From NCBI GenBank assembly GCA_018398765.1, contig JAHBMJ010000396.1, forward strand, positions 1 through 49,132: 49,132 nucleotides of DNA. The letters run 5' to 3'. A program made the position numbers and the translations under genes. Within the stretch, counting starts at the first letter, position 1; every line of letters begins with the position of its first letter. The notes below the pieces were generated by a model, which worked only from the letters and a program-made list of their open reading frames with translations, made no database searches and was not told where the DNA came from. This document shows, one piece after another, positions 907 to 49,132 of the stretch. Origin of the DNA: Chromera velia (lineage: Eukaryota).

Positions 907-988
907 TGTGATGACCTTGAATTCAATTTAAAACTATGAATGCTAGTATAAAGAAACTGATTATAAACATAGAAATCGAAATTCTACA

Positions 989-5134: not shown

Positions 5135-5640
5135 ATGCTTTGCCCGTGACGTAGAGGCACATACGTCAACTACGCCAGAGCGCGGAAAACAAACAAACAA
5201 AACACGAACACAAACAAGACGAGGTAGAACAGGACAACTACCGAATATGCATGGCTACGGAGGTGTATGAAAGGGTGCAGCGGAAGAGGACCCGCTCCTC
5301 TAGCTTTCTTGCTTTCATGCCTAACTCTTCTTGCTCTCCTGCCTGGCTGAGCCTACGCCCACCCAGCAGGAGACCCCTTGTCTCCTGCTTCTCTTTCTTA
5401 TCACCGCCCCATCTAGTCGCCTATCTGGGAGAACAGATTAACGAGAGAGAGAAACGGATAAAAGGGACGAACAGTACCTCTGGCCTATCTAGTTCCTTTT
5501 ATGCCCAAACCCAAACCCTAGTTGTCCCCACCCTAAGCAAAAAACAAAACCCTATACACGCCTACCTGCAAAGGGACGACAGAAGGGAAAGAGCAGACGA
5601 CAGAAACAGAACACAAAAGAGAGAAAGAAAAAGCCCCGCA

Positions 5641-7347: not shown

Positions 7348-7485
7348 GGCGGCAGCTCCCGTGAACAGGAATCCTGACCGAGGGTTCCTGGATAAAAGGC
7401 AAAACAGGTGAGGAAGACCGCACCACCTACTCTTGGTGGGGCTTTTGAGCGTCCCAGCCCATTTGGGACTGCCCTCTTCCCTCTC

Positions 7486-13901: not shown

Positions 13902-14447
13902 GCCTGTCCGTTCAGGCTCATCGGATAAGATCGTTTGCCAGGCTCCACGGACTCCTTCTCTCCATACATCGACCCCTGTGTAGGTCCCAACAGGATCTCA
14001 GGCAGACAGGCGCTCCATAGCCCCATCATGCCATACATGGAAGGTCGTTGTGTTGTAGTCGGGCGAGTACTTGGCTCCAGGCTCATAGTACATAGGGAAA
14101 CCAAGCTGGTCTGCAAAGTGAACCTTTTCGAGAGACCCCTCCCCGTGAGTGATCTTCTCCTCACCCTTAGATGCGTCGATGGTCAGGTTGAACGGGTCCC
14201 CCTTCCTACGTGAAATGCCACCCATCACTACGACATCATCATCATCGTCCTGACCCCCAGGACCGACAATCTGCGAGGATACAGGAGGGACACTACCCCC
14301 CCGCTGCGCCTGTCCGGAGTCTGAGTTCTTCTTCTCGAAGTTCTCGTTGTTGAACCTGCCAGGAGAAAGGGTACGCCCACCACGGCCATGACCCCCACCG
14401 CCTCCTCTCCCCCCTGAGCCGCCCCTACGACCAGGATAGGGAGACCC

Positions 14448-16886
14448 TCAACGGTCTCCAGAGCCGCCTCCACGGCCTCCTCCTCCCGGAGGACCCTTAG
14501 AGCGGCCCTCCGAGCCGCCCCTGTCCTGCCCGGTCTTGTCTATCTGCTTCATCATCCACCGCTTCTTCGCGTTCTTGTCAGGGCAGTTGTTGGGAGCATG
14601 GCCCATCGTTCTATACGATGGGCAGCCGTCCTTCTTCTGAATCCAAGGACAGGCCCCATGGCCCCCCCACTCTGCATATCCGTCCAGACGGTTGCATCTC
14701 AGGCACTGCCCATCGCGGTACCCGTGGGGAAGGCTCTTCCTGCTGGCAGGATCCCAACACGCTTTGTCCCACAAAGACCCAAACTCTCCATCCCACTGAC
14801 CGGGCTTGATTGGAGTTTCTGCAGGTCCTGCCATCGTCCCGATGAACGCATCTGACCCGGATCTATCCCGGTGTCGGACACCATATCGATCGAGAACGGG
14901 GTTCCTGTTGGGGCCCCTAGGGTTGACAACGGCCTGAGTGGGAGGACAGTCCTTTCCTTCCACCCCCTTGTCATTGTATCTACTGAAGGGAGCAGAGGAA
15001 TTGGACCCAGGAGAGTGCCCCCGATTGGAGCTCCCCCCGCCATCCCCCTTGCCGAAACCCCCTCCAGCACTGCCCTGCCTCCCGCGATCAGAGTTGCCCC
15101 TGCCCTTCCCACCAGAGTCAGGGGTCTTTCCACCTGAAGGTTTCCCTCCCTTTGCCTTGGAAGGGGACTTCCTCTGTGGGACTCCTCCAGGCCCCGCGAA
15201 TGCCACGAAAGGAACCTTCGAAATGATACCCCCCCACGAGGCACCCCCGGAGTCCCTCACCCCGAAGGTTGCCGCCTTCTGTTCCCACTCTCTCTTCAAG
15301 TCCTCGACTCTTTTAACCAGACCCCGGTCCCAGGCATCCCCGAGAGACTTGTTGAAGGTCTCCGCCTGGGCAGCGATGACGTGGATCTCCTTAATGATCT
15401 CCACTTCGCTGGTGAGGTCCACCGGGTTTTGCCTCTCCTGCCACCTTATGATGAGGTCGTTTGGCAGGTGTGCCGTTAGGAGCCCGAGCATGTACTTCAC
15501 ACCAAGCTCGTGGACGATGTTCTCCTCAATCAGGTGGTTAAGGAGACGCTTGTGATGTGCGAGCAGCTCTGTGTAGGTACCGAACCGACAGGGCTTACAA
15601 GCAATCCTCTCATACTCCAGGACGAGGGCAGAGGTCGAGTACTGGATCGTTTTGAAAAAGTACGCAAAGATCATCGCCACGACCTTATCTCGCATCTCCA
15701 CAAAGGTCCTCGGGACCGATGTCAAGATCTCCTCCAGGGTGTAGGCGATAAAGGGATCCTCAGGGTCACACTTGGGCCTCCCCTGAGTTCCACTCGACTC
15801 CCTAACTCCCAGGAAAGAGAAGATGTCAGGTGCACCCGGCGCCCCGACATCCCCAGTATGCACCCCCCTACCTATAGACACCGTCGCAGGTTCAGGGGGA
15901 GACACAGCAGGATACACCCCCCCACCCGTAAGGGGGGTCATCTGGAATACCAAAGGCAGGCGACCTTCAGTAGTACCTCTAGGGACACCCTTGGCCTGGG
16001 GAGGAGGAGAGAGCACGTCTATCTCCTTGCAGAGTTTGTCGGCCTGCTTGTTCAGAGCAAACCCATCAGATACCAGCTGGTCAATATGACCTTGCAAGAT
16101 CGCTACCAGCGTATCCTTATCAGCCTTCTCAGCGTCAAAGACCTCTTTCTTCTCGGCCCAGGATGCCAGTTCTGATGCGTACGCCTCTTTCCCTTCAGAC
16201 CCCTCAGGGAAATTGTCCCTCTTGGGCATGCTACTCAACACGTCATTCTCCTCCTTCTGGATCTCTAGAATTTAGAGCTTGTCAGCACCTCGTACGGCGT
16301 CCAGACCCGATATCTGGGCCACGAGGTCCTCGTACTGCTTCCTTTTCTTCGCCATCAGGGTGGTGTCAGATCGCACACCGACCACCTGCACCCCCCCATT
16401 GGAACTGCTACTGCTACTGCTACGGCGGTCCCGCTCATCAGAGGCCGGACGCTGCTCACTGGACATGGGGATGGACATCTGACGGGAGGTGTCTGGTCCC
16501 GCTCCTGTCTCCTCCTCCGTCTTTACTTTCGTCTCTGTTGAAGCTCCCTCATGGAGCTCCCCACCTAAAGAAAACACAACAGGGCGAGACAGAGAGAGGG
16601 AGGAGGGTTCCTTCAGAGTCTGCAAGCAGAGGATCTGCTCGTTCAGAGACTTCAACTGGGGACCAGAGATTCTCTCCTTCTCTTGACGTGAGAGAAGCTC
16701 CCTGATTTCTATGATCCTCGCCTTGCCTATTCTCAGGACGTCGGTCCGCTGCAGATATCTCTTCATCCACTCCGCATCGGGCGGAGAGACGCAGTCCACA
16801 ACGTGCCTGTGGAAAATCCGGAGCTGCTTAGAGACTTCCAAGCTGAGGTGGGGCACTCGTTCCACCACCTTCTCCAGCACTTCCAC
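14448..16886 (-). pseudogene. Gag-like protein of element A
   Basis: ORFs 16272-16886 and 14448-16241 are in frame across a single stop. They give a coiled-coil N-terminus, a Gly-rich region and C-terminal CLRC...H..C / CPSY...GH....C knuckle-like motifs. Confidence 0.6.
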
Positions 16887-18067
16887 CTCGGTCCTTGCGA
16901 CGTAGTGCTTAACGTTGACCCCTACCTTGTTCTTGTTGGTGAGGGTGAGCTCGCCGCACCACTCATCCGAGTCCCCGAGAATGGCAACAGCATCTGCATA
17001 TTACCGTACCCACTCGATGATGTCCGCATCGTCCGTGAGGCCGAAGACGCCCACGGTCTTCGCCTCCATACCCTTGATTGCGATGCACCCATGGAAAGCG
17101 TCCTTTTTAGGACCCATGGTAAGTTACCTGCAGTAGGGAATCGGGAATACAACAAGGGGAATGTTGTCAGAATGACAATGGGAGACTCTCTCAGTGACGG
17201 TGCCAGTAAAAAGTAGAGTCTCACCTCTCTTGAGATTCCTTTAGTGGAATCCTATGGGCCCTCCCGTGTCGATCCTCTAGCCTATCCAGAAGACTCCTCA
17301 GACTGCTATACTCCCGAATTCCTGGCCCTCTCCTATTGGAGGACCACAGCGAATACGTCTCCGTGACGTACTCGTCTAGACCGATACAGATAATCAGAAA
17401 TAAATACCTGATCAGTCTCTTCACCAGACAGAAAATCTATGAACCCCCACAGTCCACAGTACGCTCCTGCTGGTGGCCTCGTGCAATACTCAGAGCACAA
17501 GAGAACCACAGAGACACATAAGGCACAGTACAGATCCTACACATGAAGTTCTGTCAATCCCTAGGTCACGTCTCTCATTCAGACGGACGGTAACCGCCGT
17601 GCACATCTATCTGACTGTCTAAAAATTAATTTGGGACCGGAATTAATTCTGATGCCTCCGATGGCATAACTGCATCATCGGCCTATTTAAATCCCATATG
17701 AAGCCTCAGAGCACACACTACCACGGTGAGTGCCTCGGGTGTATTTCTTACGCCAAAGTGGATGCAGGCCATACCATGGAACTCACAACATGCACACCTC
17801 TATCGCAGGCGCCCCGCCACCCCATGTGGACGGGCCGCTGCGTGTGCGTCGCTCCTTTCTCTGGCTCGGGGCGAAGGGACGAATGGAAATGCCGGGACCG
17901 GAATTCATCCTCCGCGAATCCGACCAGGAACGGGACCGTCGTTTTCTTTCACATTTGTCAGTATATGCATATGATGAGATAGGATAGGATATAATATTTA
18001 GTATACAATATTAAATTGATTGATTGATTGATTGATAGATAGGTTCTGCAGTAGGCCTTCCCGCTAC

Positions 18068-18383
18068 CGTAAAGTAACAGACAAGGCTCGCGGGCGCAGG
18101 ATGCATAGACAAACGTATAAAACAATATCCCGCGCACAAGTATGAGCGATAAATACAGAATTAAATGTAGAACAAATTGCAATTAAAGCATGCTATTGCG
18201 GCCTTTTCCAAAGGTGCTCATGCGTACATGCTTGATTTACCAACCGTTTCAAAGTGCAAAAGGCCTTTCCAATGGCCAAGAAGTAAGACGGTATGTTTGA
18301 TAGTTCTTCTCTGTAAACGAACACTAAGTTTCCGTTTGCCTGTCTGGGATCGTTCACACTTGATTCTAGACCGTATTCTTACA
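18068..18383 (+). repeat. 5' LTR of element B
   Basis: Direct repeat of 23790-24112; reads CGTAAAG...TTCTTACA. Confidence 0.95.
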
Positions 18384-18401
18384 TGGTGCCGGCTCCCGGG
18401 A
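18384..18401 (+). promoter_or_regulatory. Primer-binding site (tRNA-Phe-like)
   Basis: TGGTGCCGGCTCCCGGGA lies directly after the LTR. Its complement TCCCGGGAGCCGGCACCA resembles eukaryotic tRNA-Phe 3' ends. Confidence 0.6.
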
Positions 18402-18689
18402 AGGCCGGGGAAAACATGCAGTTTTCTTTCCTCTTCTTTCTCGGGTTCAAGGTTTGAGTTTTACAAGTTGAAATGCGGACTCCAATCCTTGGAGGACATT
18501 TGGAGGATGTGCGGAGCGGTGAAGCAGAAGACTAGCAGCAGCAGCAGCAATTATCACAGCTGCAGTAGCAGCAGCAGCAGCAACAATCATCACAGCAATA
18601 AGAGTACGCGCAATACACATACTTTGAAGAATATATCCCTCCAGTATATCCTCCCGGTCTCTCTGGCTCCCCTCATCGCACCCCTTTGC

Positions 18690-20356
18690 CCTCCCCTTAC
18701 CCGTGGACCTTCAATCTATACGGATCCCCGATGACTCCTCAACAGCAGCAGCAGCAGCAGTATCCGGCGGCTCCTATCATGATAACCAGAAGAAGCAGTC
18801 AGGCACAGAAGATCCTCGATGAAGTCCCAGTCTTTACCGCAGAGCCTCCCACAGACGATCAGAAGCCCCACAAGCCCCACCTCACCATTGACATATGGAA
18901 GTAGTAGATAGAAGATGCTATTGCGGAAGCGAAGACAATCGATGGTACCCACACTTTTGGTCCCTTTGATCAAGCCATCTTAATCAAACGCATAATTTCC
19001 CTTTCTGTCCGAGACGTTCTGAAATTCCAACCCCAATAGGAATCGAAGCAGAACGACCCAGAGTGGCTGCTCGAAGAACTGGACAGCCTATACCTTGGAG
19101 CAAAGCATGAAAGGGTCTTGATTTCCTGGCAGGAGGTGAAGTCCCTCTCTCCTCGAATCCGAGAATCCATCGTAGACTACTTCGCCCGCTTCCGTAAATC
19201 CCTAGGTCACCTCCGAAAGCTCATCCGCGCTCTCTTGTTCGGAGATCCATCCATGACCGAATTGGAATACGCTTTCCTGCTTGATTCCCTTCCTGCAGCG
19301 AGCGCGGCTAGGAGGTACGTTCTCATAAACATCACAGAATGCACTCCACTTGGTTTGTTCGAATGCTTGCGTAGGTACGAGCAAATTTACCTCCAGCAGT
19401 CCCCCACTACTTCCATTTGCCTAGCGACAGTGCCCGGACAGGGACGCACTCCCTTCAAAAGAGCTCCCGCTCCTTCTTCGCACAAGCCGAGTTCTCAACC
19501 CGCAAACCGTAACTCGCAGCGAAAGGATTCTAACCGCAAGAAGAATCCTAATCCGAACAGAGCCGAGCTTTTGCCTTGCAAATTCTGTGAGACATCGCAT
19601 CCGGTTGGGCAGCATACTCGTTATATCTACTGTTACGGGGCCTCACACAAAGACCGCTCAGACTCAGCCTGTCCCGTTGTCGCACACAAGTGCAAATATG
19701 GAAAGGTTAGACACTTTGAGCATGCGCGTCTCTTCGAAAGAAACAAGGCAAAGGATGCCAACGGAAAGAGTGCACACATCAAGCATTTTTTTGTCTCGTT
19801 GACAGCCGAGGATACTGGTGCAGCATTTGACCTGTATACACATTGGGGGAAAAATGATGGGGCAAACGTAGATGCAGTGGGGGAACATTATTTGAGGACA
19901 GTCATGGACATTGCTTACACAGTACGAGAGCTCCCCGCCCCCATCCTTGTTTACACCACAAAGGAGACTGAGATTTCTGTGTACACAGCACAAGAGGCCG
20001 TTGTTCCTCAGATAATTCTTGGACCTCTCTGAGAAACCGTTTCTTTCCTAGTTCTTCCCGACTCCCCTGTTCCTTTCCTCTTCTCCAAACCGCTTTGCAA
20101 GCGGCTCGGGGCTGATTTCACCTATCGCACTGGAGAGATGGGAGTTTGTGAAGACGGAGATAAAACCATTGCCAGCCTCCCCTGGATCGATGTGGGACGA
20201 TATTTTGCTCTGCCTTTCCGTCAGAATCCCCCCAAAAATCTCGATAAACCCTCCATTATGATGGTAGTTGAGGGACCTGCGTCTCCCGCTATTAACTCCC
20301 TACAGGAGTTTGCCGTCGATGATACAGACATCAGGCCTGTGCAAGTGGGTGCATAG
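18690..20356 (+). pseudogene. Gag/protease region of element B
   Basis: Broken ORFs. ESIVDYFARF is gag-like, and there is a CKFC...H...H / C..H..C cluster. Confidence 0.6.
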
Positions 20357-20545
20357 CTGCATGCAGATGACGAGACCGAGTCCGTCATTGAGAATTCTGA
20401 CGCAGACGGGTCCTCAGAGGAATTAGAAGCCAACCCCGATTCTTCTGAGCCTTCTTCTGTCCCCGAAACCATCTCTGCCGTCTTCCTTGAGTCCAGTGAG
20501 GTTTTCTCTTTCCCTCGTCGCAACCTGTATCGTCTTATCCAACAG

Positions 20546-21706
20546 GTGCATTGCGACTACGGTCATGATAGTGTGTCTGAAGTCCTTGCCCAACTCAGTC
20601 GTGTCTTTACCTTTTCTTTTTCTGGACGTACTCTTCGTAAAGTCGTCCGTCGAGTCCTCCGTGCCTGCCCGGAGTGCCCAAAAGTGAAAAGGCCATGCGG
20701 TTTCACTATTCCCGGTGTTTCGTGCACTTGTGGTCCTTATACTAGCTACAGTCTTTGCATAGACAGTCAGTATTTCGGGCCGTCCGAGACCGCATACACA
20801 CACCAGATGTCCATTATTGAAGACACCAACAATCAGGGTTTCGGTCTCCGATATTCTGCTGCCCCTACTTCTGAAGAGTCCCGCGATTTCCTCCAATATG
20901 TCTGGGTTTCTCGGTATGGTGTTCCCATTGAAATCCACTGTGACCCAGGTCTAGAGTTTCAAGGAGTATTTAAAGAGTATGTAGAGTATGAGTTGGGCAT
21001 CAAAGGGGGGCCCACTTATACTCCAGTTAACTATTATGATCCGATTGTGGAAAGATGGCAGCGTGAAGCCCTTGCCATCATGCGTGCGACGCTCCTTGAG
21101 AAAGGTCTCTCCCCTCTTAAATGGCCAAAGCTCCATGACCTCGTCATTTGGCGTTTAAACTCTCGCCTCACTCTTACAGGCAAGCCCTGTCAGACCCAGT
21201 TGCACTCTTTCCCTCCTTTGCCCTGTTTTCGGGAGTTTTTCACTTCTGTGCGTCGCCCTTCTCCCCCCTCTCTGCAAACCTTTGAGGTGGGAGATATGGT
21301 TATATACAACCAAGGTGCGGGCCTGGGAGGCCGTCGATTGGGCATAGGTCACAAGTGCGGTCCTGTTTATGTACCGTACAGGGTGACGGAGAAGAAGAGA
21401 AACCACTTCTATGAGCTCAAAGCACTTGATACAAACACTTGCCCATTCTACACAACCGCAAGCCCCCACCAACTCGGTCCCACCACTGTTCCCTTTCCAG
21501 ACCTGGATAGAGATCCAGTTTCTTCCGACCCTCCCGCACCCTCAGTGCTGCCTTCGACTACTCTAGTACCACCGGATATACCTCCCATTCCCTCATTTTC
21601 TGTTCCCTCCGCACTTTTGCCTCCCAGCAGTATGGTTGTCGTATCTTCGCCAGAGCATTCGCTACTCTGGATAGAAGAGATATGCGGTATGATTCCTTCA
21701 GGATAG
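20546..21706 (+). pseudogene. Integrase of element B
   Basis: HCDYGH...CPEC zinc finger; LCIDS, IHCDPG and VERWQRE form the DDE triad. Confidence 0.9.
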
Positions 21707-22249
21707 GGGTCAAGCTGCAATGACCCTCTGTACAAGATTCACGCTTGGGGAAGTCATCAGCGCTCAGCCCTCCATCGCCGCCAATGGCATCCCGGGCATT
21801 ACATCCGCTCTGGGGCGTACGTGCAATACGACTCACGGGTCTGAAACAAAGACTCTGAGTTGATGGAAGCCAATCACTCGCGCATCAAAGCAGCCAACTT
21901 CGAGATGGTATCTGGATAAGGAAACAGAGGTTCCCGTCTCCCCCCTGATCTGTGTGAGCGCTTGGCAGCAGGCATTGATGGATGCCGCTTCGGAGCTTAT
22001 CCTGGGGAGAGTGACCCCGATCCGTCTGTCCCTGTCTCTGTGTCCTTTCTCTCTGCCGCGTTCACAGAAATCAACGCTGCCACCACCCATCAGCCCGTGA
22101 AGATGCGCGATCTTCCCCCTAATGAGCAGGTGAAAGTTCGAAAAGCAGATAAGTGAGAGGATAAAGGGTGGGCTGATCTGAAAGTTTACGAAAAGGTCCC
22201 TCTTTCCGCTGTCCCCCCTGGAGTAACCCGAGTGCCGCTGAAGCGCGTC

Positions 22250-23743
22250 CGCACCAGCAAGCTCACCGATCATGGTTCACGCAAATACAAGACTTGCACT
22301 GTCTTCAAGTTGTTAGGTAACCTGATGTCTTGACTGGGGCTTGATGTCTCCACCAGCCTCTGTCCTGCAGAGTCCATGCGCCTTATTTTTCAGATTGCCC
22401 TCGACATCTACAAATGTCGAGGTATCAAACTGTCTATGAAAAAGGCAGACATCACCCAAGCGTACCTTCAGGCCGATCTTCCCCCTGACCGAGAGGTCTG
22501 GGCCATTCCCCCCCCCGACCATCCTAGCTTCGGTCAGTTCCTCTGGCGGCTACGCAAGGCTGTGTATGGGATGCCGGATGCAGGAAAGATCTTCGAAAAG
22601 CACCTTCGTACAGTGCTTCTAGCTGTTGGATGGGAGGAGAGTCTCTTTCATGGATTGTTCTTCCTTCGGGGTGAAGATGGCGAACTGCGTGGCATCATTG
22701 CTACCTATGTCGATGACCTGTTCATCTTGGGGCTTAGAGAAGATGCGTCTTCTCTTGAAATTCCCATCCGAGAGACTCTCAGTGTGGGAGAATCTGCAGA
22801 GATCACCGAGGAAAGATTTATCGGTGTTCAGTTTAGGACCACCGCTGATGGCTCCCTGTTCACCCACCAATATGACTATGTCTCTTCCATGGTCCTCCTA
22901 TCTGATGCTCCCGGTACCGATCGCAGAGCAGACAAGCCTCTCCCCGTAGGTGCCACCCATGAAGACGATGAGAGCCCTCTCCTTTCAGACGAGGGCGTAC
23001 GAGTATTTTGAACCCTCCTAGGACAGGTGGGTTATGTTGCCAATTGTACAAGGCTGGATGTTGCACTCGTTTACAGTTATCTATCCCGCTGGATGTCTAT
23101 CGCCACAGAGCGCGCTTTCTGTCTGCTCGTGCAGACCGTTCGTTACCTTAAGGGAACACCCAATCTCGGAATCCCCATCCGCCCGTCTCCCAATCCACAC
23201 GAGTTCACAGGGGTATATCATGCAGACGCATCCTTTGGAAACGCATCATCTCCCCACCCACAGAGCAGCCGAATCCTCTTTCTGAATGGGTCTCCGATTG
23301 GATATAAAAGCAGACGCCAGCCACGTGTTGCACGCTCCACCATCAGAGTAGAAGTCCTCTCCCTGGAGGATGCCGTTGACGACGCAATCTACACTACACT
23401 GTGCATATCCTCTTTCTATCAGACTGTCCGTCTAGCTGTGGGCTGCGATGCAGCTAACGTCTTCCATCTGATCAAATCTGGGGCTCCCACCTCTGCCGAA
23501 CGTGCTCTGCTACCAGTCCTCAAGGGGCTCAACAATAAAGCGTGTGTTGTCCCTCTTTTGGCTGCAACCGACCTCACTGAGCTTCACCAAATCGCAGTCT
23601 TCAAGATTCCTACCGATCAAAACATTTCCGATGTCCTCACCAAGGCTCTCAACGTTGGTTTTCTCAATGGACTGATGCAACTAACCAGCACGGTGCCCTC
23701 TGTATTCGGGGAGGACATCGTTGCATCTACTCCGCCCTTTTAA
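22250..23743 (+). pseudogene. Copia RT and RNase H of element B
   Basis: RT motifs ADITQAYLQA, LRKAVYGMPDAG and YVDDL; RNase H motifs HADASFG, STIRVE, GCDA and NISDVLTKAL. In-frame stops are present. Confidence 0.92.
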
Positions 23744-28023: not shown

Positions 28024-28630
28024 AAAAGTCCCCCCTGCAAACGGCAAGGGTTATATAAAAAATGCGCCGCATCGCTGAAACTTATGACCGTACTCCAGCA
28101 TGTCAGTCACTTTAGTAATCACTTTAATTTTTTAGTTAAGTTTTTTTTTTTTTTTAGCCGGACATTATTTAATTGCCTTTGTATGTCATAATAATGAAAG
28201 TTTAGATAAAAGTCTCATCGCCGTAGTACTGTGGTTTTCATAAGTTGAGTCATGATATCTTAGTTTTAGACTTTTAGTGGCTTTCAACCAACACATACAG
28301 TTTAGAGTCGTGAAAGTTAATCTGAGGGGTAGATCTAAGGATGCCAGTGGATTTTCTAGTGGATTTCTAGATTCATTCGCCACTGCGTTCAAGTTTTGCT
28401 AAGTTTTGCTGCAAAGATACTGAAGGAATGAAGACAACTTGAAGAAGGAAAAAAAGGGACGGAGCTGTCGGCAAAAAGTGACATGAGGAACGTGCAAGAA
28501 GCCCTTTACCTCGCCTCACTTCCGCGCCTTGGGTGGCGAAAGAACAGACGCACAGATCGGGCCAAGGCACCGCTTCCCTCACTTCACTTCATCCCCCCTC
28601 AAAACGACCTAAAAGAATGCCGTTGCATGC

Positions 28631-28713
28631 ATGCAGGGCCCTGAAAGAAATCAGTGCCGCCCTCCCCTCGACAAAAAGGGTTTCTGGGCAGCACTTCGCA
28701 CAGGGGGCTGCAC
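28631..28713 (-). promoter_or_regulatory. Candidate form-2 SECIS element with non-canonical GCGA core
   Basis: The minus strand reads GTGCAG CC CCCTG TG CGAA GTGCTGCCC AG AAA CCCTT TTTGTC GAGGG GA GGGCGGCAC TGAT TTCTTT CAGGG CC CTGCAT. This gives helix I, a GA/GA core, an 11-nt spacer to an unpaired AAA, and an apical mini-helix. Confidence 0.7.
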
Positions 28714-29620
28714 ATCCCTTACCTCTTCCTCTTCTTGTGCCCTCCTCCCCCCAAAGGAACCCTCACCGTCACAGTGACGGCGACCGAATCTTTCGACGAT
28801 CCGACACTGCAGGCGCACAGGAAGCCCCCCTCTCGGTATGCCAGCGAGAGGGAAAGGGGCCCCGGCAGCATTCTGTTCTTTCCGCAGTGGGCCTCAACTC
28901 TGGGGTTGTTCCCTTGAAGGGCATTGCTCACAGACATGAATGAGGTTCGTTTTCTTTGACTACTACTTGTGCGTACATCCATCCGTCCGTCACGTGCACA
29001 GGTGGGTGTTCTCTTTGGTCGGTCCAGCTGGTCGGTTGGTCAAGTTTCAGACAGGCTGTCTATTCTTGAAATGATTCCTCTATTTCTTCCGTCAGCTTTC
29101 TTGACTTCCTGCGATACTCCTTCCTTGATGCCTCCGAATACATCGCTTCTCTTCTTTTCGCTGCCTACTTGAGTGACCCCCTTTTCGCGTCCCCACTCAC
29201 GTACTTCAACCTGGTTTTTTCGTCTCACGGACTTCACTTCATTGTTGCAAGACTCCCTGCCAATTCCTTACAGAACAATGCCGAGTGCAAAAGAATACAT
29301 GGCTTTAAAAGCCCACTCAATTCACCTCCCAAACAGAAGCAAAAGCACAGGAACGCAAAAAAAAGTCTCCCGCCCTCCACGCCTTGCTCCACCCTCAAAG
29401 TGACTACGGTGCGCACGTACACCCTTTTCATTTTCTCCTCTTTCCTCGTCAAAGACACCAGAGAGAATCTTCAGAACCCCCTCCGAGTTTCTGTCCCCGC
29501 AAACAGAGAAAAAGAAAGAACAGGAACACAACTACACATCCCCCCCCCCACTGCCGGCCCTCGAAGACCCCACACAGACAGCTGTTCGTTCGTGTCTGCA
29601 TGCTGTGGAGGGAGATCTAT

Positions 29621-30130
29621 CTAGGCCACCGCCGTCTCTCTGGAGATCCCCAGTCTGGCCAGAACCTCGACAGCCTCCGGGTGTTCGTTCGGGACTCTGT
29701 CCTTGAAGGCGTACACCAGACGACCTGTCTTGTCAATCAGGAAGGTCCCTGCAGGAGGGAGGGATCGAGACAGGCAGGATCGAGAGAATGCGTGCATGGT
29801 GGGGGGGGATGCAGCAGCATCCTTGCGTGCGTCCATGCAAAAAAACCTCGCTCATAACATGTGCTTAAGGTGCAGGACCATGCACGTGGCTCGGTTCGTC
29901 CTTGAAATCAAATCCGGGTTTTGAGCGTGTCATCCATCACTCTTGAGGGATTTCGGGAACTCATAAACGCTGCAGTAGAACCTTCAGAGCGAAAAAAGGA
30001 GACGGCACTCTATCGAGGCATATGCAGAGAATTTGGCGACAAGCGGCCGGCACAGATTGGTAGAGAGGCGCCGAGACCGGGTAGGACTCTCGAAGGAAGG
30101 AAGGAAGGGAAGGAAGGAAGGAAGGAAGGA

Positions 30131-30161
<31 letters not shown>

Positions 30162-32643
30162 GGAAGAAAGGAAGAACTGAACCTCTCGGAAAGGGTAGCA
30201 GGAGACAGGAGAAGGACGCGACAGATATGGAACACTCGATGCCAACCTTTCCTCCCTGCACTTTCTTTCACCGTCTTCTTGTCCTTCGATCAGTTGCACG
30301 GCCGTCGCGTGAATCCCTCTACATATGTATGTCTGCATACAGGAACGCATCTCAGAAGTAAACCCTACTAACCTCCCTGCTGCTTCACTGTCTCTGCATC
30401 CTTTGGTTGCACCGCCGTCACATCGTATCCCTTCATGACATCAGACAGCTTAGCGATGCCCTTCTGCAGCTCTGCAAAGGCAGTGAAGGGGTTCAGCAGC
30501 AGCTTGAAGAAGTTGTAGTTGTCAAGTTTCACAGGGACTCCGATGTCCTCCAACAGACCCATCGCCTTGTAAGCGCTGCAGCATGAGTGAGTAACATGTG
30601 GGGAATTTGAAGAGAGAGCAAAACGTATTTTTTTGTTTCTCTGCTCGTCTTTTCCGTTCCCGACAATCTCGGATAAGCCTGCTACCAGCTTGCGAACACT
30701 CAAGAGAAAATTCAAGAGAGAAAGGGAGAGGGAGAGAGACAGAGAGAGAGGGGGAGAAGGCGTCCTTTGGTTCGAGACCGCACTCAGTCAGGCACACGTT
30801 GAATAATCAAATTTGAGCATAAATCCTCTCCTGGCCTTTCCATTCTTTTTCATGCATCGTCTAGCTTCCAATCTTCTTTCTGCGAAGAAGTACTTTTCGC
30901 TGCTTCTCCCTCCTATTCGAAAAGAAGCCCCGCACCTGCACCTGCAGCATTTCGTTCCCTCCACCGACAAAAGCACACAGGATCTAGCTGTGTGCACTGA
31001 CAAAAGACAATCGAGAAGTTGGGTCCTAGCACTAGTAGGTCCTCTGACAGAGGACGGAAGATTGCTGCGAAAAGACACAGCAACGGAACCAGCCTAGCGA
31101 GAGTTTTCTCCCAATTGTCATGTCATGACACTACGCAAGCGACCACCTCCCGGAAGGGCTTTGCAGACGGAGCAACAATACCCCACCCACCCACTCCAAC
31201 CACTTCCCTGTACCCCTTTCCCTTTTCGTACAAGAGAAGTTTCGCGTGCACCTTATTCATGGAACCAGAGACCGAAACCATTGAACAAATGGTAGACATA
31301 AGAATACCGAATACTGTATCTCTCTCTCTCTCTCACACACAGCCTGGTTTGACGAACGAGACTTCGCGAAGGGTCTCAAGGCTTTCAAGAAGTCCCGATG
31401 GGGACACATCCCCATCGAGTCGGGAATCGATAAAGAAAGAATTTGAAGGATGTTCACAACAGTCAACAGAAATCGACGTACCTTGGCACTCTAGACGACG
31501 AGAGGAGAAAGCTCCATGAATTTCAAAAGAAAGAGAGAGAGAGAGACAGGGAGAGAGGGGAAGAGAGAAAGAGAGATGGAGACAGAAAGAGAAAGACAGA
31601 AAGAGCCAGAGAGAGACAGAGAGAGACAGCAAGCCATCAACTGACTGACACTCTGTCGGGGTCCACAAAGAAGGAGGCGGGCCCAAACGCCCCCGTCTTC
31701 TCCACCACGAACCTTCCCTGCTCTGGCTTCCCCACAGCCACCAGCACAACGTCCACCTTCGACACAGGATTGTTGTCCATCAGGTCCTTCAATTCATAAA
31801 TTTCTTTGGCATACTCCCTGCACACATTCAAGGAGCTAGGAGACGGGATCTGAGAGACGGTACGGAGACGGAGACTCCGTGAAAGACAGGGGAAAGACCC
31901 AGGAGACGGCAGGAAAGGAGGGAAAACAGAACAGCAGGCAAAGTTTGTATCACGCAGCAATGGAACGCCTGTAGGGTGAGAAAAGGCGAGATCGAGGCTC
32001 TTTCGTGGAGGGTTCAGGAGACGGCATTCGAGAGAGAGCCTCGTGCAGTTGACGGTGCGTTATAGCAGCAAAGAGCAGTTGTGGAGGTGACGAAGCGTCA
32101 AATGAGCCAAGGCACCAAACACTGGCCACCCATACTTGGCGAGTGGGCCAGACACACAGTCTCACGGAGACGGGATCGACTCTACTGCATGCGTACCAGC
32201 AGAAGGGTCAGCCCACATGGCGAAGGAAAACCACGAGGGCTGCGCTCTCTCCCTTGATGTGACGGTCCAGCACGTCTCTCACAAGCGTGGCAGATCCGTC
32301 ATCTGCAAACACAAAAATAAGAGACTTGTCATCTGCAGCACTCGTGCAAACAGAGGCACACGCTCACAACGCGTAGGTAGGCATTCCCGTCTCTTCCACT
32401 CCTGAAGCCCTACCGACCGATTGCGTACAGCGTCTGGTCCCGGAGAGTCTCCACAATCGAGGGGTTCGCATCCAAAACCTGGGACGCTTCGTTGGGAAGG
32501 TCGGCCACACGCAGGGCGGTGGTTTTCCTTCCCGCATCCGCAGCTTGCCGCCCAGCACCCGCTAAAGTGCCAGTGCGGAGCACGAAGCTCTGCGTGACTG
32601 CGCACGCAAGCAGGCCCAAAAGGGCAACGAAATTCCACGACAT
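29621..32643 (-). CDS. Peroxiredoxin-like AhpC/TSA_2 (SelU/PRXL2-like) selenoprotein, predicted plastid-targeted; 5 exons
   Basis: Exons 32643-32418, 32302-32197, 31817-31650, 30575-30373 and 29748-29621 are all GT-AG and phase-compatible (831 nt). Motifs are VVFLRHVG-U-PFCWEY, FFVDPDR.AYKAMGL and QQGGTFLID...HP. The TGA is at 32210-32208. Confidence 0.88.
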
Positions 32644-33161
32644 CGAGCAGTCTCCAGTCTATTTCTCTACTCAGGTTCCGGAAAAATGGCAGACAACGAA
32701 AGAGGTGCAGAGCTTTCGGATGACAATTGAACGCGCGACTTTGCTCCTTCTTGTGATTTCCAGTGTATACGTGCACGGCAAAATAATCGACGCACGCAAG
32801 TCTATACGGCAAGTAACACCATGCATTGACGCACGGCAAAGCGCGCAGAACGAGCGCCGCGGCCTTCGCGGTTTTTTTTAATTAATTAATTTTGCGCACG
32901 TTTTCTTGAATGTGTATATATATATATGGCCGGAACGTATTAATATAGTTTGTGTCAAAGATGTCCATGTTCCGACCCCTAAAGGGACAGGAGCATCCTA
33001 AAAACAGTCTTCTGGAAGTCTGGGAGTCATTTTACACTTTGAGACGCTCACTGGTTCCTGCCTCGCTTAACCTGTTTTCACTCACTCACCTGCCTGCACT
33101 TCTTCTCCCTCTCTACATATTTTCGCTTTCTTCCCTGCTGAGCGCGTTCGATCGGTAAAAA

Positions 33162-43209: not shown

Positions 43210-43921
43210 GTTCGAGATTGATGTCAGTGCATGGCATGCCGATTCATTCCTGGCACTGCGAACGCAGTTGCGAAGAGGCTGTTACGAACACTCGCGGCTG
43301 CGCAAGGTACTATCAAGCGGCTGTAGGCTGACACCATGCAGTCCTGCATGCATGCCAGATGCGGTATTTTGGTGCGGGATAGACGGACCGCGCGCAGGGA
43401 GTTTTTTTCTTTGGCCCCGGATCGAAAGCACATGGCGTGGGGCACTTAAAAAAATTGTGCCGGAATGGCAGCATGCATGTTCAACTGATTGTTGCAGGGT
43501 TGCAGTGATGCAGGTAATTAAATTCTGCACGCACGAGACCCTCTCGAAGACAGATACAGCGAGATACAGTGAGTTCTCTCTGAAACATCAAATCTGCTGA
43601 CAGTTCACCGTATGCCCCCTGTTGCCTGGCAATCAGACAACCACAGATTCCGAGACTTCCTTCCACAGTTGTATATATATTGATGTATATCTGACAATCA
43701 GAAGACAGTTCGTTCTTTCTTACAAGCTTTTTTTCGCAAATTGCACGTGTTGTCGATTGCTGGCACTGGCTGCCCCTGAACGCTTCACTTCTTCCTGATG
43801 ATGAGATTTTGAACAGACAGCAACACACAGGATTGCTGCCTTGTGCAATAGACGCGGCTCGGGAAAACACTGGACTGAGCGTATACGTGTTGCATGTTAT
43901 ACGCGGTTGGTGTAAATCCCA

Positions 43922-45301
43922 ATGTTGAACTTACTGGCGGCTGCGCTTGCATGTATCCCTTTTCTGTACGCAAGCATTGACAATGCGATGCTGATCGACG
44001 CTTCTCAGATTCCCAGTGGTGCCCACGTTCATCTGCGTTCCTCAGAAGGGGAGGAAGGGGAGGAAGGTGGGGGGAAAGATCAGTTTCTTTCTGTCAGGAG
44101 CCTGCACACGGCCCCAGGGACAGGCGTCTGTTTGCGAGGCAACCGAGACGCGTGGGAGAGCTTTGAGTGGATCGTCCACAAAGAAGTAGACGGAGGGGGC
44201 ATGGTCGTGTCGTTGAGAAACGCGAAGGGGGGGTGTCTCTCTCCCAGCAGGGGGGGGGGCTTCACCTTCCGGTCCTGGTGTAGTGCGTGGGAAAGGTTTC
44301 AAGTGGAGGTGGTGACAGAGGAGGCAGACTGGCCGAGAGCTGCCGTCACCCTGAGGGTGATGCAGCCAGAGGCAAGAAGGGGCGAGGCCGTCCAGGTCAA
44401 GGGGCAAAGGGGATCTCCCCGCTGGATTGTGCACTTCGCCGAAGCCCCCAGACTGAACTTGGCGCCCCTGTTGACACTCTCGGGCTCTGCAAGGTTTGCA
44501 TATACGTATGAAGACCTTCCCACTGACGCACGCAGCCTGGTAGATCTGCTTGTGTGGGCCCACAAAGACACGGGCTTCTTCCTTGCCTACGGCCATGGGG
44601 TGGACGTGGGGGTCCTCGAGGCGTTGAAGGCGGAGACGGCAAAGGAGCCGGAGAGCCGTCTCCCGATCTCCTATACAGGAGGGGATGACTCTAAGCACAA
44701 GACCAACACAGGGCTGGTGGAAGAGCGGAGACATAAAAGGAAGTCTTCTCCCCACCTAGAAAGGGGAGTCCGACCTTTAGAGCTGAAGGAGAGGGTGCAG
44801 ACGTACATGACTGAGGTCACCCGTCTGGCCGAAGATCTCCTTCTCCTCTTTGCCTTTGGTGAGGCACGGGGAAAAGGTGGAAGAGAAGGGAAAAGCTCTG
44901 AGTCAAAAAGCAGCATTGAGTCCGTAAAGTGGGTACAGGACTTCATGGGCCCATCCCGTGTCCTGGGACTCCGTTTCCTCGTCTACCCCCCAGGACCGAT
45001 GGAAGACGAAGAGGGAAGGAAGGTGGTGACAACGCACCGCCATACGGACGCGACGTTCATCACCCTACTGGTGGAGGACCAGGTGGGTGGACTGCAAGCG
45101 AAGGCGAGAGGGGACAGGTGGTATGAGGTCAGAAGCGCCTCGGGAGATATTATCGTGAACACTGGGAATGTCCTTGAGGAGCGCTCTGAGGGTTTCTATC
45201 CTGCTGTATGCCACCGAGTTATCCGACAAAACGAAGATCGGACAAGAGTGAGCATGCCATTTTTTTACGACTTTGCGGGCTCAAAAACGAAAGGGTGTTA
45301 A
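43922..45301 (+). CDS. 2OG-Fe(II) oxygenase (IPNS-like) with signal peptide and fascin-like N-terminal repeats
   Basis: Oxygenase motifs GFFLAYGHGV, HxD (HTD), GGLQ, VNTG, HRV and RVSMPFF. The N-terminus is hydrophobic and followed by LRS..FLS..WESF / SLRN..CLS..WERF repeats. Confidence 0.85.
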   Translation: MLNLLAAALACIPFLYASIDNAMLIDASQIPSGAHVHLRSSEGEEGEEGGGKDQFLSVRSLHTAPGTGVCLRGNRDAWESFEWIVHKEVDGGGMVVSLRNAKGGCLSPSRGGGFTFRSWCSAWERFQVEVVTEEADWPRAAVTLRVMQPEARRGEAVQVKGQRGSPRWIVHFAEAPRLNLAPLLTLSGSARFAYTYEDLPTDARSLVDLLVWAHKDTGFFLAYGHGVDVGVLEALKAETAKEPESRLPISYTGGDDSKHKTNTGLVEERRHKRKSSPHLERGVRPLELKERVQTYMTEVTRLAEDLLLLFAFGEARGKGGREGKSSESKSSIESVKWVQDFMGPSRVLGLRFLVYPPGPMEDEEGRKVVTTHRHTDATFITLLVEDQVGGLQAKARGDRWYEVRSASGDIIVNTGNVLEERSEGFYPAVCHRVIRQNEDRTRVSMPFFYDFAGSKTKGC

Positions 45302-46401: not shown

Positions 46402-47033
46402 TCAACGTAAAGCTGCAAACAAAGAGCCAGTCACGTCAGCGCGTATAGAGGGACAGAGATCCTGATCGCTTTCGAGTCTCTTGCGGTAGCGTCCAGCGTG
46501 AGAGGAAAAACGGGGTTTGTCTCTTTCCGACAGTTCCCCTCCTCTCACAAGGAGCTCCTTCACAATCTTCCATTGTTCACTCGCGATCGTGGACATCAAC
46601 GGGCTCTTCACATGTTCAGCTCTAGCTCCTGTCGCGTTCACAGCGACGCCCCTTTCAAGGAGCGCCATTACCCCCACCTCCCAGCGCTCCTCGATGGCGG
46701 TGCGGAGGGGCCACCGCTTCTGGTACCACTTCTTGCTTCCCATGTCATTGGAGTTGGGGTTGATTCCGTGGGGCTTTTCCAACTCCCTCAGAGGAACCGA
46801 CTGGATGATCTGCAGGAGCAGGGGGCCCTTCACAGGCCTGCTGGCAAGTCGCGCTTCGTCGCCCTCGAAAAACAAGCTGGAAACCCAACCCTCGTCACAG
46901 CAGATCAGGTCAGCAAGCCATGACCCAGACCCCCATTCTGGCCTTCTACTAGTAGCGTCTGTCTCAGGGGGCCACCTAGTGGCCAGAAGGGCAGGGTCTG
47001 CTCCCATCTGCAGGAGAGCAAAGAATGGAATCA

Positions 47034-47106
<73 letters not shown>

Positions 47107-47254
47107 ATGTGTGTGTGTGTGTGTGTGTGTATGTGCATGTGTGTGTGTGTGTGTGTGTGTGTGCATGTACGTGTGTGTGTGTGTGTGTGTGTGTGTGTCT
47201 GTGTGTGCGTGCATATGTGTATGTATGTGTGTGTGTGAGTGTGCGTGTGTGTAT

Positions 47255-47295
<41 letters not shown>

Positions 47296-47475
47296 CGTGT
47301 GTGTGTGTGCGTGCGTGTGTGTGTGTGTGTGTGTGTGCATGTACGTGTGTGTGTGCGTGTGCGTGTGCGTGTGCGTGTGCGTGCATATGTGTATGTATGT
47401 GTGTGTGTGAGTGTGTGTGTGAATGTGTGTGTGTGTGTGGCATGTGTGTGCATGCGTGTGTGTGTGTGTGTGTTT

Positions 47476-47518
<43 letters not shown>

Positions 47519-47537
47519 TGAATGTGTGAATGTGTGA

Positions 47538-47571
<34 letters not shown>

Positions 47572-49132
47572 AATCACGTGCACTCGAGAATCAAATCAAA
47601 TTAGTCAATGAAGAAAACTAGCTGCTTTACGTATCTACGCGTGAGAGCAGAAGATTGATGCGTGAGAGCAACAGTAGAGTACAGAGTGAAATTCCAACAC
47701 ACCAAAGAGGTGAATGAAGAAGAACACGCAAAGCTCGACAAAAGACAGGCAGACAGTACCGCACGGATTTACTAGGGCACCCTGAGCGAGAGGGACAGAG
47801 GGAGAGAAGGAAAGAGTGCAAGAACATATATCGGCTTTACTTTCTCACTCACCTCCACAAGCGTTTCTACCAAAATCCAGGACTTTTTGAGCGCCATGTT
47901 TGCTTCTCGCTCTAGCTCACGCTCTCTGTCCCACTCCGCTCCAGAGTCTTCGGAGTCAGAGTAGAATTCCTCACACCATGCATTCATGCTCGCATTCTCG
48001 GTTCTCCTGTGCGTCAGGACTGCTGCTAGTGGGCACCCCATCTCCCAGACCTGCTTATTTTTTATGATGACCCCACTGGCGTTCGGATCTGCCCCCCCGC
48101 TCTCGCACAAGAAACGGACGAGCGCTGAATCTCTCATACAACACGCAAACAGTAACGGAGAAATCCTGCTCTGCTCAGGCAGCTGCTGGGTCTCAACCCC
48201 GACCCCTTCGCTCGCTTCGCTGTCGGGGAGGAGGGCCCGCGGGGCGCAGCGGGCCCCGGCGTGTACCAGGAGCTTCGTAAGCTCTGCGACCTCCCGCTCA
48301 GAATCGGGCCCCCCTGCAGGGGCGACCAGTCTGTACATGACAGCCTGCAAGGGATACGCCCTCGTGGCCGGAAGACTGAGTGGCTGGGGAGGCTCGAACA
48401 GCCCGATCTCGTTGGGGTCTGCCCCTGCCTGCAGAAGCAAGGAGACCAGACTGAAGCGGGGGGGGGAATGGGAGGCCGGGCTGAACACAAGTGCTTCACT
48501 CAGAGGCAGCCTCCGCTTTCGCCCCAGGGCCTGACCCCCGTTCACTGCCGCCCCTTTTCTCACAAGAGCTTCCGCGGTTGACTTCATGTTGCGGCGGCAT
48601 GCCAGAGACAAGGGAGAGTGACCATCGTTGGCCAGCCTCCTATTCAGGTCTGCCCCCGATTCTGCAAGCACCTCGACCACCCTCGCCATCATCTGGTCAG
48701 GACGGTTTTGCCACTCACGCAACATAACGCGCGTGCCTGCTAAATACGGAACAGAAACGACATACGGCACTGGATAGTCCTGTAGATCGGATACCGGAGG
48801 GTCATCGTCGTGAACCCCAGGGATATTCGGGTCTGCCCCTCCTTTCTCGCACAACAGTCTGACGAGCTCGAGGCTGCACATGCAGGCGGCGTGCAAGGGT
48901 GACACCCTGCTGCGAGGAGGTGCGTCGTTTTGTTCCTCGGAGGGGGGGTTCGTCTCCTCAGTCTGACTGCATCTGGCACCGTGGTCTATCAGCAGCTGAG
49001 CCGTTCGCACAACAGTCTCAGCGTCAAGGCCATTGTTGTCCAGCTGCGAGGTTGCGATCAGCTGCAGAGGGGTGTAGAGTCTCAGAGGGGGAGAAGAGAG
49101 CTGGCCCCACAGGGTCCTCCTCTTTGCTAATC
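46402..49132 (-). CDS. Ankyrin-repeat protein, 5'-truncated by the window end
   Basis: Repeated SPLHAAC..LVRLLCEKGGADPN, SPLSLAC..LVRKGAAVN and LLQAGADPN motifs. A GT-AG intron at 47852-47008 contains a (TG)n tract. Confidence 0.85.
47035..47568. repeat. Compound (TA)n/(TG)n microsatellite in an intron
   Basis: Directly visible. Similar simple repeats occur at ~26720-26815, 33770-34050, 40027-40113, 40335-40600, 41205-41305 and 41722-41795. Confidence 0.95.

What the first reader, a model, noticed from the sequence alone, without database searches (positions are those of the whole stretch)
29621..32643. Hidden selenoprotein: UGA in a UxxC redox motif of a probably plastid-targeted peroxiredoxin-like protein
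Seen: exon 2 reads GTT TTC CTT CGC CAT GTG GGC TGA CCC TTC TGC TG|G, i.e. VFLRHVG*PFCW. The TGA (codon 107) falls exactly at the first Cys of the family CxxC motif, and three further intact in-phase exons follow. The N-terminus MSWNFVALLGLLACAVTQS-FVLR is a signal peptide followed by a Phe-starting transit-like peptide. Established: SelU/PRXL2-family proteins have UxxC forms, and Phe at +1 marks import into complex red plastids. Inference: a Sec-containing plastid redox enzyme that ORF-based annotation misses.
Basis: partly seen in the sequence, partly recalled or inferred. Interest (0 to 1): 0.85.

Follow-up and report, generated by a model that had tools for sequence, protein, structure and literature searches.

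The report
Plastid selenoprotein with unusual SECIS core
A spliced, expressed gene of the alga Chromera keeps an in-frame UGA where its relatives have a catalytic cysteine, so it most likely makes a selenium-containing redox enzyme, predicted to enter the plastid, and its likely selenocysteine signal in the 3' UTR has a C where such signals nearly always have a U.

Summary
The five-exon minus-strand gene gives 276 codons with one internal TGA, at codon 107. All four joints appear in 6 of 6 runs from 3 studies, with no listed change at the TGA. The public model (Chromera velia Cvel_17182) starts 17 codons after the UGA. The UGA aligns with the first Cys of CxxC in PF13911 (SelU/PRXL2) homologues. 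A published table lists SepSecS and selenophosphate synthetase for Chromera.

New here: 924 nt after the stop, inside the transcript, lies a type II SECIS-shaped hairpin, the only one in the UTR. None of 300 shuffles gave one as stable. Its core reads CGA/GA, not UGA/GA, which all four SECISearch1 patterns require. Rfam misses it.

Signal peptide plus Phe recurs in the Vitrella homologue, which supports plastid import.

Sec-type SelU is common in algae, and this scan has found the family before on other DNA. Sec insertion, SECIS function and location are inferred, not shown.

The parts
32418..32643 (-). Exon 1 (coding part): ATG, predicted signal peptide (residues 1-19), Phe20, transit-like peptide (about 20-45) and start of the mature domain
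   Evidence: Sequence; covered by transcript contigs from about 32657-32693; aligns with Vitrella P0020 residues 33-80, 20 of 54 identical, E 9e-7 pairwise
32587..32643 (-). Predicted signal peptide, residues 1-19, cleavage proposed before Phe20
   Evidence: Hydropathy; V-[TS]-Q-[SA]-F shared with P0020; judged by eye, no SignalP run
32303..32417 (-). Intron 1, 115 nt, GT..AG
   Evidence: joint in 6 of 6 runs
32197..32302 (-). Exon 2 with the redox motif U-P-F-C (residues 107-110)
   Evidence: aligns with CxxC of homologues
32208..32210 (-). In-frame TGA, codon 107, inferred selenocysteine
   Evidence: no other letter listed in 6 runs
31818..32196 (-). Intron 2, 379 nt, GT..AG; also seen retained in contigs of study P1
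31650..31817 (-). Exon 3; holds Met124, where the public 153-aa model starts
30576..31649 (-). Intron 3, 1074 nt, GT..AG
30373..30575 (-). Exon 4
29749..30372 (-). Intron 4, 624 nt, GT..AG
29621..29748 (-). Exon 5, coding part, ending in TAG
28234..29620 (-). 3' UTR, about 1.3-1.4 kb, unspliced
   Evidence: Contigs of 6 runs end between 28234 and 28356; contigs cannot fix the true end
28630..28718 (-). Type II SECIS-like element. 5' core G-CGAA (C at 28698, GA at 28697-28696), 9 further pairs of helix 2, unpaired AAA (28683-28681), 5-bp helix 3 with a 6-nt loop, 3' core UGAU (28653-28650), helix 1 of 5+6 bp
   Evidence: Fold -42.7 kcal/mol, z -3.19, 0 of 200 shuffles; only hit in the UTR, shuffle test; on one contig with the UGA in X6; no variant listed in 6 runs; no Rfam match

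Best explanation
This spliced, expressed nuclear gene of Chromera has an in-frame UGA at the first position of its CxxC motif, and most likely encodes a selenocysteine form of a SelU/PRXL2-family redox enzyme that is predicted to be imported into the plastid. Step 1 (shown): four introns are removed and one mRNA carries the UGA and, about 1,430 nt further on, the hairpin. Step 2 (inferred, about 0.9): UGA107 is decoded as Sec by the cytosolic machinery. Step 3 (inferred, about 0.8): the signal is the type II SECIS at 28718-28630, which keeps the tandem G.A pairs, the spacing and the unpaired AAA but has C in place of the near-invariant U. Step 4 (inferred, about 0.75): the ribosome is brought to the ER by the signal peptide, Sec is inserted during import, and the Phe-led transit peptide takes the protein to the stroma. 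Step 5 (inferred from the family, about 0.6): the selenolate of U107 reduces a hydroperoxide, endoperoxide or disulfide, resolves with C110 to a selenenylsulfide, and is re-reduced by plastid thioredoxin, as the CxxC of prostamide/PGF synthase (PRXL2B) is thought to work (recalled). The substrate is not known; photo-oxidised lipid peroxides are the likeliest guess.
For: Splicing and TGA retention in 6 of 6 runs, 3 studies. One X5 contig spans all five exons with 0 other letters; one X6 contig carries all four joints, the UGA and the hairpin. A profile of 12 non-chromerid homologues scores the read-through protein 100.0 bits over residues 45-265 against 66.5 for the part after the UGA, and puts UGA on the first Cys. 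GC3 is 0.68 before and 0.75 after the UGA, against about 0.5 GC for the region. A metagenome homologue has TGA at the same position (L001). All three Vitrella records lack the motif region: P0020 runs from the exon-1-like part straight to the exon-3-like part, as expected if a gene caller dodged a UGA. SPS and SepSecS are listed for Chromera and Vitrella, not for Arabidopsis. The hairpin is the only SECIS-shaped hit in 1,387 nt under three settings; 7 of 300 shuffles gave any hit and 0 of 300 one at or below -19 kcal/mol (observed -24.6). Phe follows the cleavage site in most Chromera plastid proteins (PMC6668581). P0020 also has a signal peptide then Phe and a basic peptide. A plant hit is named chloroplastic AAED1. 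The best solved relative is prostamide/PGF synthase, 9us9, E 1.2e-18.
Against: No protein-level evidence of Sec. The SECIS core departs from UGAN/KGAW, which PMC2647825 calls invariable apart from Toxoplasma and Neospora SelT. Rfam gave no SECIS family among 8 matches at E up to 10. A 71-nt cut of the hairpin is weaker: z -2.30, 4 of 200 shuffles as good. My scan criteria were set after I had seen the hairpin, and looser ones give 52 of 300 shuffles with a hit. No homologous UTR was obtained, so there is no covariation. No Vitrella DNA was seen, so its UGA is inferred. PSTK is blank for Chromera in the same table, though also for Toxoplasma and Plasmodium. A second possible cleavage site (A-C-A, after residue 15) would not expose Phe. 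The tree does not firmly join the Chromera and Vitrella proteins (71/83) or tie them to the plant plastid clade.
Confidence: 0.72

Rival explanations
1. It is a selenoprotein, but the signal peptide sends it to the ER, the periplastid space or outside the cell, not to the stroma.
For: No targeting program was run. A-C-A at 13-15 is an equally valid cleavage site by the -3/-1 rule (recalled). The transit-like stretch has one Asp and only 4 Ser/Thr in 27 residues. PMC6668581 warns that precision may drop because its reference set has few endomembrane negatives.
Against: V-[TS]-Q-[SA]-F and a basic, acid-poor peptide recur in Vitrella P0020. There is no ER retention signal and no second hydrophobic segment among the top five windows. 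A plant relative is named chloroplastic.
Confidence: 0.15
2. Sec is inserted, but the CGA hairpin is not the working signal (a decayed or chance structure), and another element does the job.
For: The core breaks the consensus. No Rfam match. No covariation data.
Against: No other SECIS-shaped fold in the UTR under three settings. Spacing, AAA, the 3' UGAU and helices 1-3 all fit published geometry. No variant falls in it in 6 runs, whereas study P1 differs elsewhere in the UTR, a weak point given so few variants.
Confidence: 0.07
3. The UGA is a true stop: the gene is a transcribed pseudogene, or only the 153-residue Met124 product of the public model is made.
For: This is the public annotation. 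Intron 2, right after the UGA, is partly retained in study P1.
Against: The stop falls exactly on the catalytic Cys, and the frame is intact and conserved on both sides. The Met124 product would lack the redox motif and the targeting peptide. Of three coding differences in study P1, two are synonymous. No diverged copy over the exons appeared at 80% likeness. A SECIS-shaped element lies downstream.
Confidence: 0.03
4. UGA is read through as Trp or Cys without selenium (code change or leaky stop).
For: The Chromera plastid genome reads UGA as Trp (recalled, not checked). UGA read-through as Cys occurs in some ciliates (recalled).
Against: The gene has spliceosomal introns and so is nuclear. The six homologue rows that align cleanly at this column have Cys and none has Trp. 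SepSecS, which serves only Sec synthesis, is listed for the species.
Confidence: 0.03

Closest known systems
Selenoprotein U (SELENOU/SelU) family, Pfam PF13911 AhpC-TSA_2 (PRXL2A/B/C, recalled equivalence)
   Same: PF13911 at 43.2 bits against a cut-off of 27 on the truncated protein. R-H-x-G-U-x-x-C motif, D-P-x-R-x-x-Y-x-x-x-G-L and Q-Q-G-G blocks. Sec forms of SELENOU occur in more than half of 36 algal genomes (PMC7539508) and in Ostreococcus and Thalassiosira (PMC2375036).
   Different: Not reported from chromerids in the papers searched. It carries a bipartite-type presequence. It is divergent: only two Vitrella proteins reach E below 1e-7 among 18 hits. Orthology to SelU1, 2 or 3 was not tested.
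Plant chloroplast 'thioredoxin-like protein AAED1' and green-algal relatives
   Same: Closest named non-chromerid hits; same domain span, N-terminal extension and CxxC-W/Q context.
   Different: These have Cys, not UGA, and a primary-plastid extension without a signal peptide. The tree does not resolve a joint clade.
Prostamide/prostaglandin F synthase (PRXL2B; PDB 9us9, 9usa)
   Same: Best solved relative, E 1.2e-18 over profile positions 14-191, same R-x-F-G-C-x-x-C motif.
   Different: Cys enzyme of animals; its prostanoid substrate cannot be assumed for an algal plastid.
Eukaryotic type II SECIS; the GGA/GA variant of Toxoplasma and Neospora SelT
   Same: Tandem GA/GA, 12 nt to the unpaired AA and 29 nt from AA to the 3' GA, inside the published 10-13 and 15-39 limits. 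3' KGAW is met. G precedes the quartet, as in Ostreococcus. Helix 3 is present.
   Different: The first quartet base is C (CGA/GA), neither U nor the coccidian G. It fails the NTGA that all four SECISearch1 patterns need.
Bacterial and choanoflagellate/haptophyte AhpC-like UxxC selenoproteins; NCBIfam NF040769 SelL-related
   Same: UxxC redox box (PMC3753652); L001 has TGA at the same place.
   Different: NF040769 score 45.9 on the truncated protein is far below the cut-off of 120.

Membership tests
Eukaryotic selenoprotein | In-frame UGA kept in the spliced mRNA | tested here: met
   6 of 6 runs show all joints; no change listed at the TGA
Eukaryotic selenoprotein | UGA aligns with a conserved Cys/Sec, with homology on both sides | tested here: met
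   L001 has TGA there
Eukaryotic selenoprotein | SECIS-shaped element in the 3' UTR of the same transcript | tested here: met
   shape only, with a deviant core
Eukaryotic selenoprotein | Sec machinery in the genome | tested here: inconclusive
   SPS and SepSecS listed, PSTK blank; tRNA-Sec, EFsec and SBP2 not checkable (no tRNA in the window; no chromerid in the Secmarker supplements)
Eukaryotic selenoprotein | Selenium in the protein | not testable with these tools
   Needs 75Se labelling or mass spectrometry
Canonical eukaryotic SECIS (UGAN/KGAW) | U as first base of the quartet | tested here: not met
   C at 28698 in the window, with no other letter listed in 6 runs; consensus
Canonical eukaryotic SECIS (UGAN/KGAW) | Tandem GA/GA, KGAW, unpaired AA 10-13 nt above the core, helices 1-3 | tested here: met
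   limits
Canonical eukaryotic SECIS (UGAN/KGAW) | Match to an Rfam SECIS model | tested here: not met
   0 of 8 matches at E up to 10
Canonical eukaryotic SECIS (UGAN/KGAW) | Conserved, covarying structure in relatives; SBP2 binding | not testable with these tools
   No chromerid UTR could be fetched (one search gave only L001)
SelU/PRXL2 (PF13911) | PF13911 above the gathering score | tested here: met
   43.2 against 27 bits, E 5.7e-11
SelU/PRXL2 (PF13911) | [CU]xxC motif before the PF13911 region | tested here: met
   U107-P-F-C110
SelU/PRXL2 (PF13911) | Orthology to a named subfamily (SelU1-3, AAED1) | tested here: inconclusive
   Tree of 24 rows has an open backbone and no animal rows
True peroxiredoxin (AhpC/Prx) | Peroxidatic P-x-x-x-[TS]-x-x-C motif (recalled) | tested here: not met
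   The seven residues before U107 are VFLRHVG
SelL-related redox protein NF040769 | Score above the curated cut-off of 120 | tested here: not met
   45.9 bits for the 153-aa part; full-length plant relatives reach only 56.9 and 68.2
Stroma-targeted protein of complex red plastids | Signal peptide, Phe at +1, basic acid-poor transit peptide | tested here: inconclusive
   Fits by hydropathy, composition and the Vitrella homologue; SignalP and ASAFind not available; an alternative cleavage site exists
Stroma-targeted protein of complex red plastids | Observed plastid location | not testable with these tools
   Needs a reporter fusion or organelle proteomics

The most novel reading that the evidence does not exclude
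Chromera decodes selenocysteine with a third kind of SECIS core, CGA/GA, besides the universal UGA/GA and the coccidian GGA/GA, and uses it to build a selenoenzyme that crosses four membranes into a photosynthetic secondary plastid. If the C core recurs in other chromerid genes, pattern-based searches have been blind to part of the selenoproteome of apicomplexan relatives, and their SBP2 reads this position loosely.
Probability: 0.5. Interest if true: 0.72.

Novelty: new variant of a known kind. Interest (0 to 1): 0.55.

Why it matters
The protein family is known, and this alone would be a routine annotation fix. Two things add weight. First, a natural CGA/GA core tests the rule that the U of the SECIS quartet is invariant; a reporter and an SBP2 binding assay can settle it, and the answer changes how protist selenoproteomes are searched. 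Second, it gives a concrete candidate for a selenoenzyme in a photosynthetic secondary plastid, in the closest photosynthetic relative of apicomplexans, a lineage for which my searches found no selenoprotein study. The public records of both chromerids lose the catalytic motif (and in Chromera the targeting peptide), so plastid proteome predictions built on them cannot see this protein.

Tried and rejected
No whole genome is held, so the Sec machinery and other Chromera SECIS elements could not be searched. The run search listed no holder on record as RNA; this is no evidence either way, and the spliced joints were used instead. Single exons gave no Pfam hit below E 0.1. The word-index search with P0002 found only itself, 1 of 132 candidates. 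The one metagenome scan confirmed 1 of 271 stretches, a distant bacterial-like locus, and no chromerid transcript. Two other folds were tested as recoding elements and rejected: the 66 nt around the UGA on unspliced sequence (z -1.14) and 29495-29440 (z -0.51). The upstream in-frame acceptor for exon 2 (AG ending at 32333) is not the one used in any listed joint. The motif count (17 of 37 non-self proteins match, all Cys) used a pattern that demanded C, U or X, so it was not used as evidence against Trp. The tree did not place the protein. The ESM Atlas search only repeated PF13911. The 26-letter loose end of X4 does not match the window. Paper searches: selenoprotein+Chromera gave 1 unrelated paper; selenocysteine+Chromera gave 5, none by title on chromerid selenoproteins, and the one opened has the word only in a reference; the Vitrella/chromerid search listed 25 of 4,717 with no such study; SECIS core searches showed no CGA core, and one search returned no SECIS paper among 30 of 91 listed. 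The Plasmodium selenoproteome paper is not held. The supplement of the algal selenoproteome paper could not be read and may hold SECIS variants. Files 13-16 of the chromerid genome paper were not searched. No structure or complex prediction was run.
Full report
The gene model. The minus strand of 32643-29621 holds five exons (32643-32418, 32302-32197, 31817-31650, 30575-30373, 29748-29621) separated by GT..AG introns of 115, 379, 1074 and 624 nt. Joined, they give 831 nt, that is 276 codons and a TAG, with a single internal stop: TGA at codon 107, 32210-32208. Exon 2 ends VFLRHVG-U-PFC.

Transcripts. Six public runs hold the stretch, from three studies, each labelled 'RNA? (a guess)'. All four joints are present at the predicted bases in 6 of 6 runs. 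No other letter is listed at the TGA. Spliced contigs of X4, X5 and X6, one per study, bridge it. One X5 contig covers all five exons with 0 other letters, and one X6 contig runs from exon 1 through all joints to 28356. Some intron and flank bins have zero depth, which fits RNA, but no DNA run was available as a control. The four runs of study P1 share differences from the window, three of them in coding sequence: two synonymous and one A59E. They look like a second strain (inference), and it keeps the TGA too. Against a fully tidy picture: P1 also has contigs that retain intron 2, and one X4 contig leaves the sequence inside the TGA with 26 letters that match nothing in the window.

Identity and annotation. 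Exon 3 finds one protein, P0002, whose record names it Chromera velia Cvel_17182 / A0A0G4FIZ9. It is 153 residues long and equals residues 124-276 of the model. The public model therefore starts at the first Met after the UGA and lacks both the redox motif and the N-terminal signal. P0002 matches Pfam PF13911 at 43.2 bits, cut-off 27. A full scan gave 18 hits at E up to 0.001; the two best after itself belong to Vitrella brassicaformis clusters, and the named plant hits include 'thioredoxin-like protein AAED1, chloroplastic'. A profile of 12 non-chromerid homologues scores the read-through protein 100.0 bits over residues 45-265, against 66.5 for the downstream part, and places the UGA on the first Cys of CxxC. 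A bacterial-like metagenome homologue has TGA at the same spot. None of the three Vitrella records holds the motif. P0020 has an N-terminus that aligns with exon 1 (20 of 54 identical) and then jumps to the exon-3-like region, dropping residues that its 95% identical cluster mate P0003 has. That is what a gene caller avoiding a UGA would produce, but I did not see Vitrella DNA. The nearest solved structure by profile is prostamide/PGF synthase, 9us9, E 1.2e-18. The protein lacks the peroxidatic motif of true peroxiredoxins (motif recalled) and is far below the NF040769 cut-off. A 24-row tree left the backbone open; the three chromerid rows group at only 71/83.

Its core lies 924 nt after the stop and about 1,430 nt after the UGA on the mRNA, inside the transcribed UTR. 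The 89 nt at 28718-28630 fold at -42.7 kcal/mol, z -3.19, 0 of 200 shuffles as good; a 71-nt cut gives z -2.30, 4 of 200. With the quartet held open the fold is a type II SECIS: helix 1, internal loop, tandem GA/GA, helix 2, unpaired AAA 12 nt above the core, a 5-bp helix 3, and UGAU on the 3' side. It is the only such hit in the 1,387-nt UTR under three settings. Of 300 dinucleotide shuffles, 7 gave any hit under the strict setting and 0 one at or below -19 kcal/mol for the upper stem (observed -24.6); under a looser setting the counts were 52 and 1. In the whole window, both strands, there was one other hit, at -10.6. The criteria were set after I had seen the hairpin, so these counts flatter it somewhat. 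The odd point is the first quartet base: C, giving CGA/GA. No other letter is listed there in any of the six runs. SECISaln (PMC2647825, main text read) states that UGA/GA is invariable except for GGA/GA in Toxoplasma and Neospora SelT. The four SECISearch1 patterns all need NTGA (PMC3753652 supplement passages), as did the search in PMC2375036 (passages). Rfam gave no SECIS family among 8 matches at E up to 10. Three searches for core variants and passages of PMC11227280, PMC3316567, PMC2761289 and PMC10778597 showed no CGA core. The library lacks most subscription papers and one relevant supplement was unreadable, so 'unreported' is provisional.

Machinery. Supplementary file 3 of the chromerid genome paper (PMC4501334, rows seen) lists EC 2.7.9.3 and EC 2.9.1.2 for both chromerids and neither for Arabidopsis. 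PSTK is blank for the chromerids, but also for Toxoplasma and Plasmodium, which use Sec (PMC6155587 passages for Plasmodium; PMC3753652 for both). tRNA-Sec, EFsec and SBP2 were not checkable.

Targeting. Residues 5-15 are hydrophobic, and residues 20-46 start with Phe and hold 5 Lys/Arg and 1 Asp. The Vitrella homologue has the same layout and shares V-[TS]-Q-[SA]-F at the proposed cut. Most Chromera plastid proteins have Phe just after the cleavage site (PMC6668581 passages); the gene is not in that paper's supplement. No predictor was run, and a cut after A15 is also possible, so plastid location stands at about 0.75.

Mechanism. Shown: splicing, UGA retention, and the hairpin on the same transcript. 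Inferred: Sec insertion at codon 107 directed by the CGA-core element; import through the ER into the stroma; a U107/C110 redox cycle fed by thioredoxin, acting on peroxides or disulfides. The last step rests on family knowledge (recalled), and the substrate is a guess.

What is known. Sec-containing SELENOU occurs in more than half of 36 algal genomes (PMC7539508 passages; its main text does not mention Chromera or Vitrella). UxxC AhpC-like selenoproteins are described from many protists (PMC3753652 passages). This scan has noted the same family in a diatom and in several prokaryotes (unchecked notes). Searches for chromerid selenoproteins found no study. Selenoproteins predicted in plastids are not without precedent: I recall one proposed for the Plasmodium apicoplast, but that paper was not held, and PMC9404770 and PMC13103439 gave nothing on the point.

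Verdict. A real, expressed and mis-annotated member of a known selenoprotein family. It ranks as a new variant because of the CGA/GA SECIS core and the predicted secondary-plastid location. Interest 0.55; 0.72 if the core is shown to work.

Noticed in passing
window 3806-4837 +: Intact-looking ORF with Viral_Rep (E 1.1e-14) and RNA_helicase (E 5.8e-10) domains: a CRESS-DNA-type replication protein in this algal genome, followed by short tandem repeats near 4770-5170.
   Followed up: partly
window 947-2119 + and 2155-3690 -: Two long intronless ORFs beside the Rep: a 390-aa ORF with no Pfam hit and a 511-aa ATPase_2/AAA ORF with a hydrophobic N-terminus.
   Followed up: partly
window 5743-23743: Retroelement-like ORFs on both strands; RVT_2 at 22334-23011 (E 7e-15) and a weak integrase zinc-binding hit at 20357-21706. 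The long minus-strand ORFs at 12276-16271 and 5743-6666 have no Pfam hit.
   Followed up: partly
window 43916-45301 +: Intronless 461-codon ORF with a signal-peptide-like start and a C-terminal 2OG-Fe(II) oxygenase domain (E 1e-18); the N-terminal half has no Pfam hit.
   Followed up: partly
window 46402-49130 -: Ankyrin-repeat coding sequence (Pfam Ank hits for 47775-49130).
   Followed up: partly
window 31789-32225, 31967 and 32396: Runs of study P1 hold contigs that retain intron 2, and three of them show identical loose ends inside introns 1 and 2, which may be strain-specific insertions.
   Followed up: no
window 32209: One X4 contig leaves the sequence inside the TGA codon with 26 letters not found in the window; probably a chimera.
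   Followed up: partly
L001 939-1472 +: Bacterial-like PF13911 gene with TGA at the first Cys position; the database protein P0034 (128 aa) starts after it.
   Followed up: partly
proteins P0003, P0004, P0020: Vitrella has two paralogues (99/94 support); all three records lack the redox motif, so both are candidate mis-annotated selenoproteins.
   Followed up: partly
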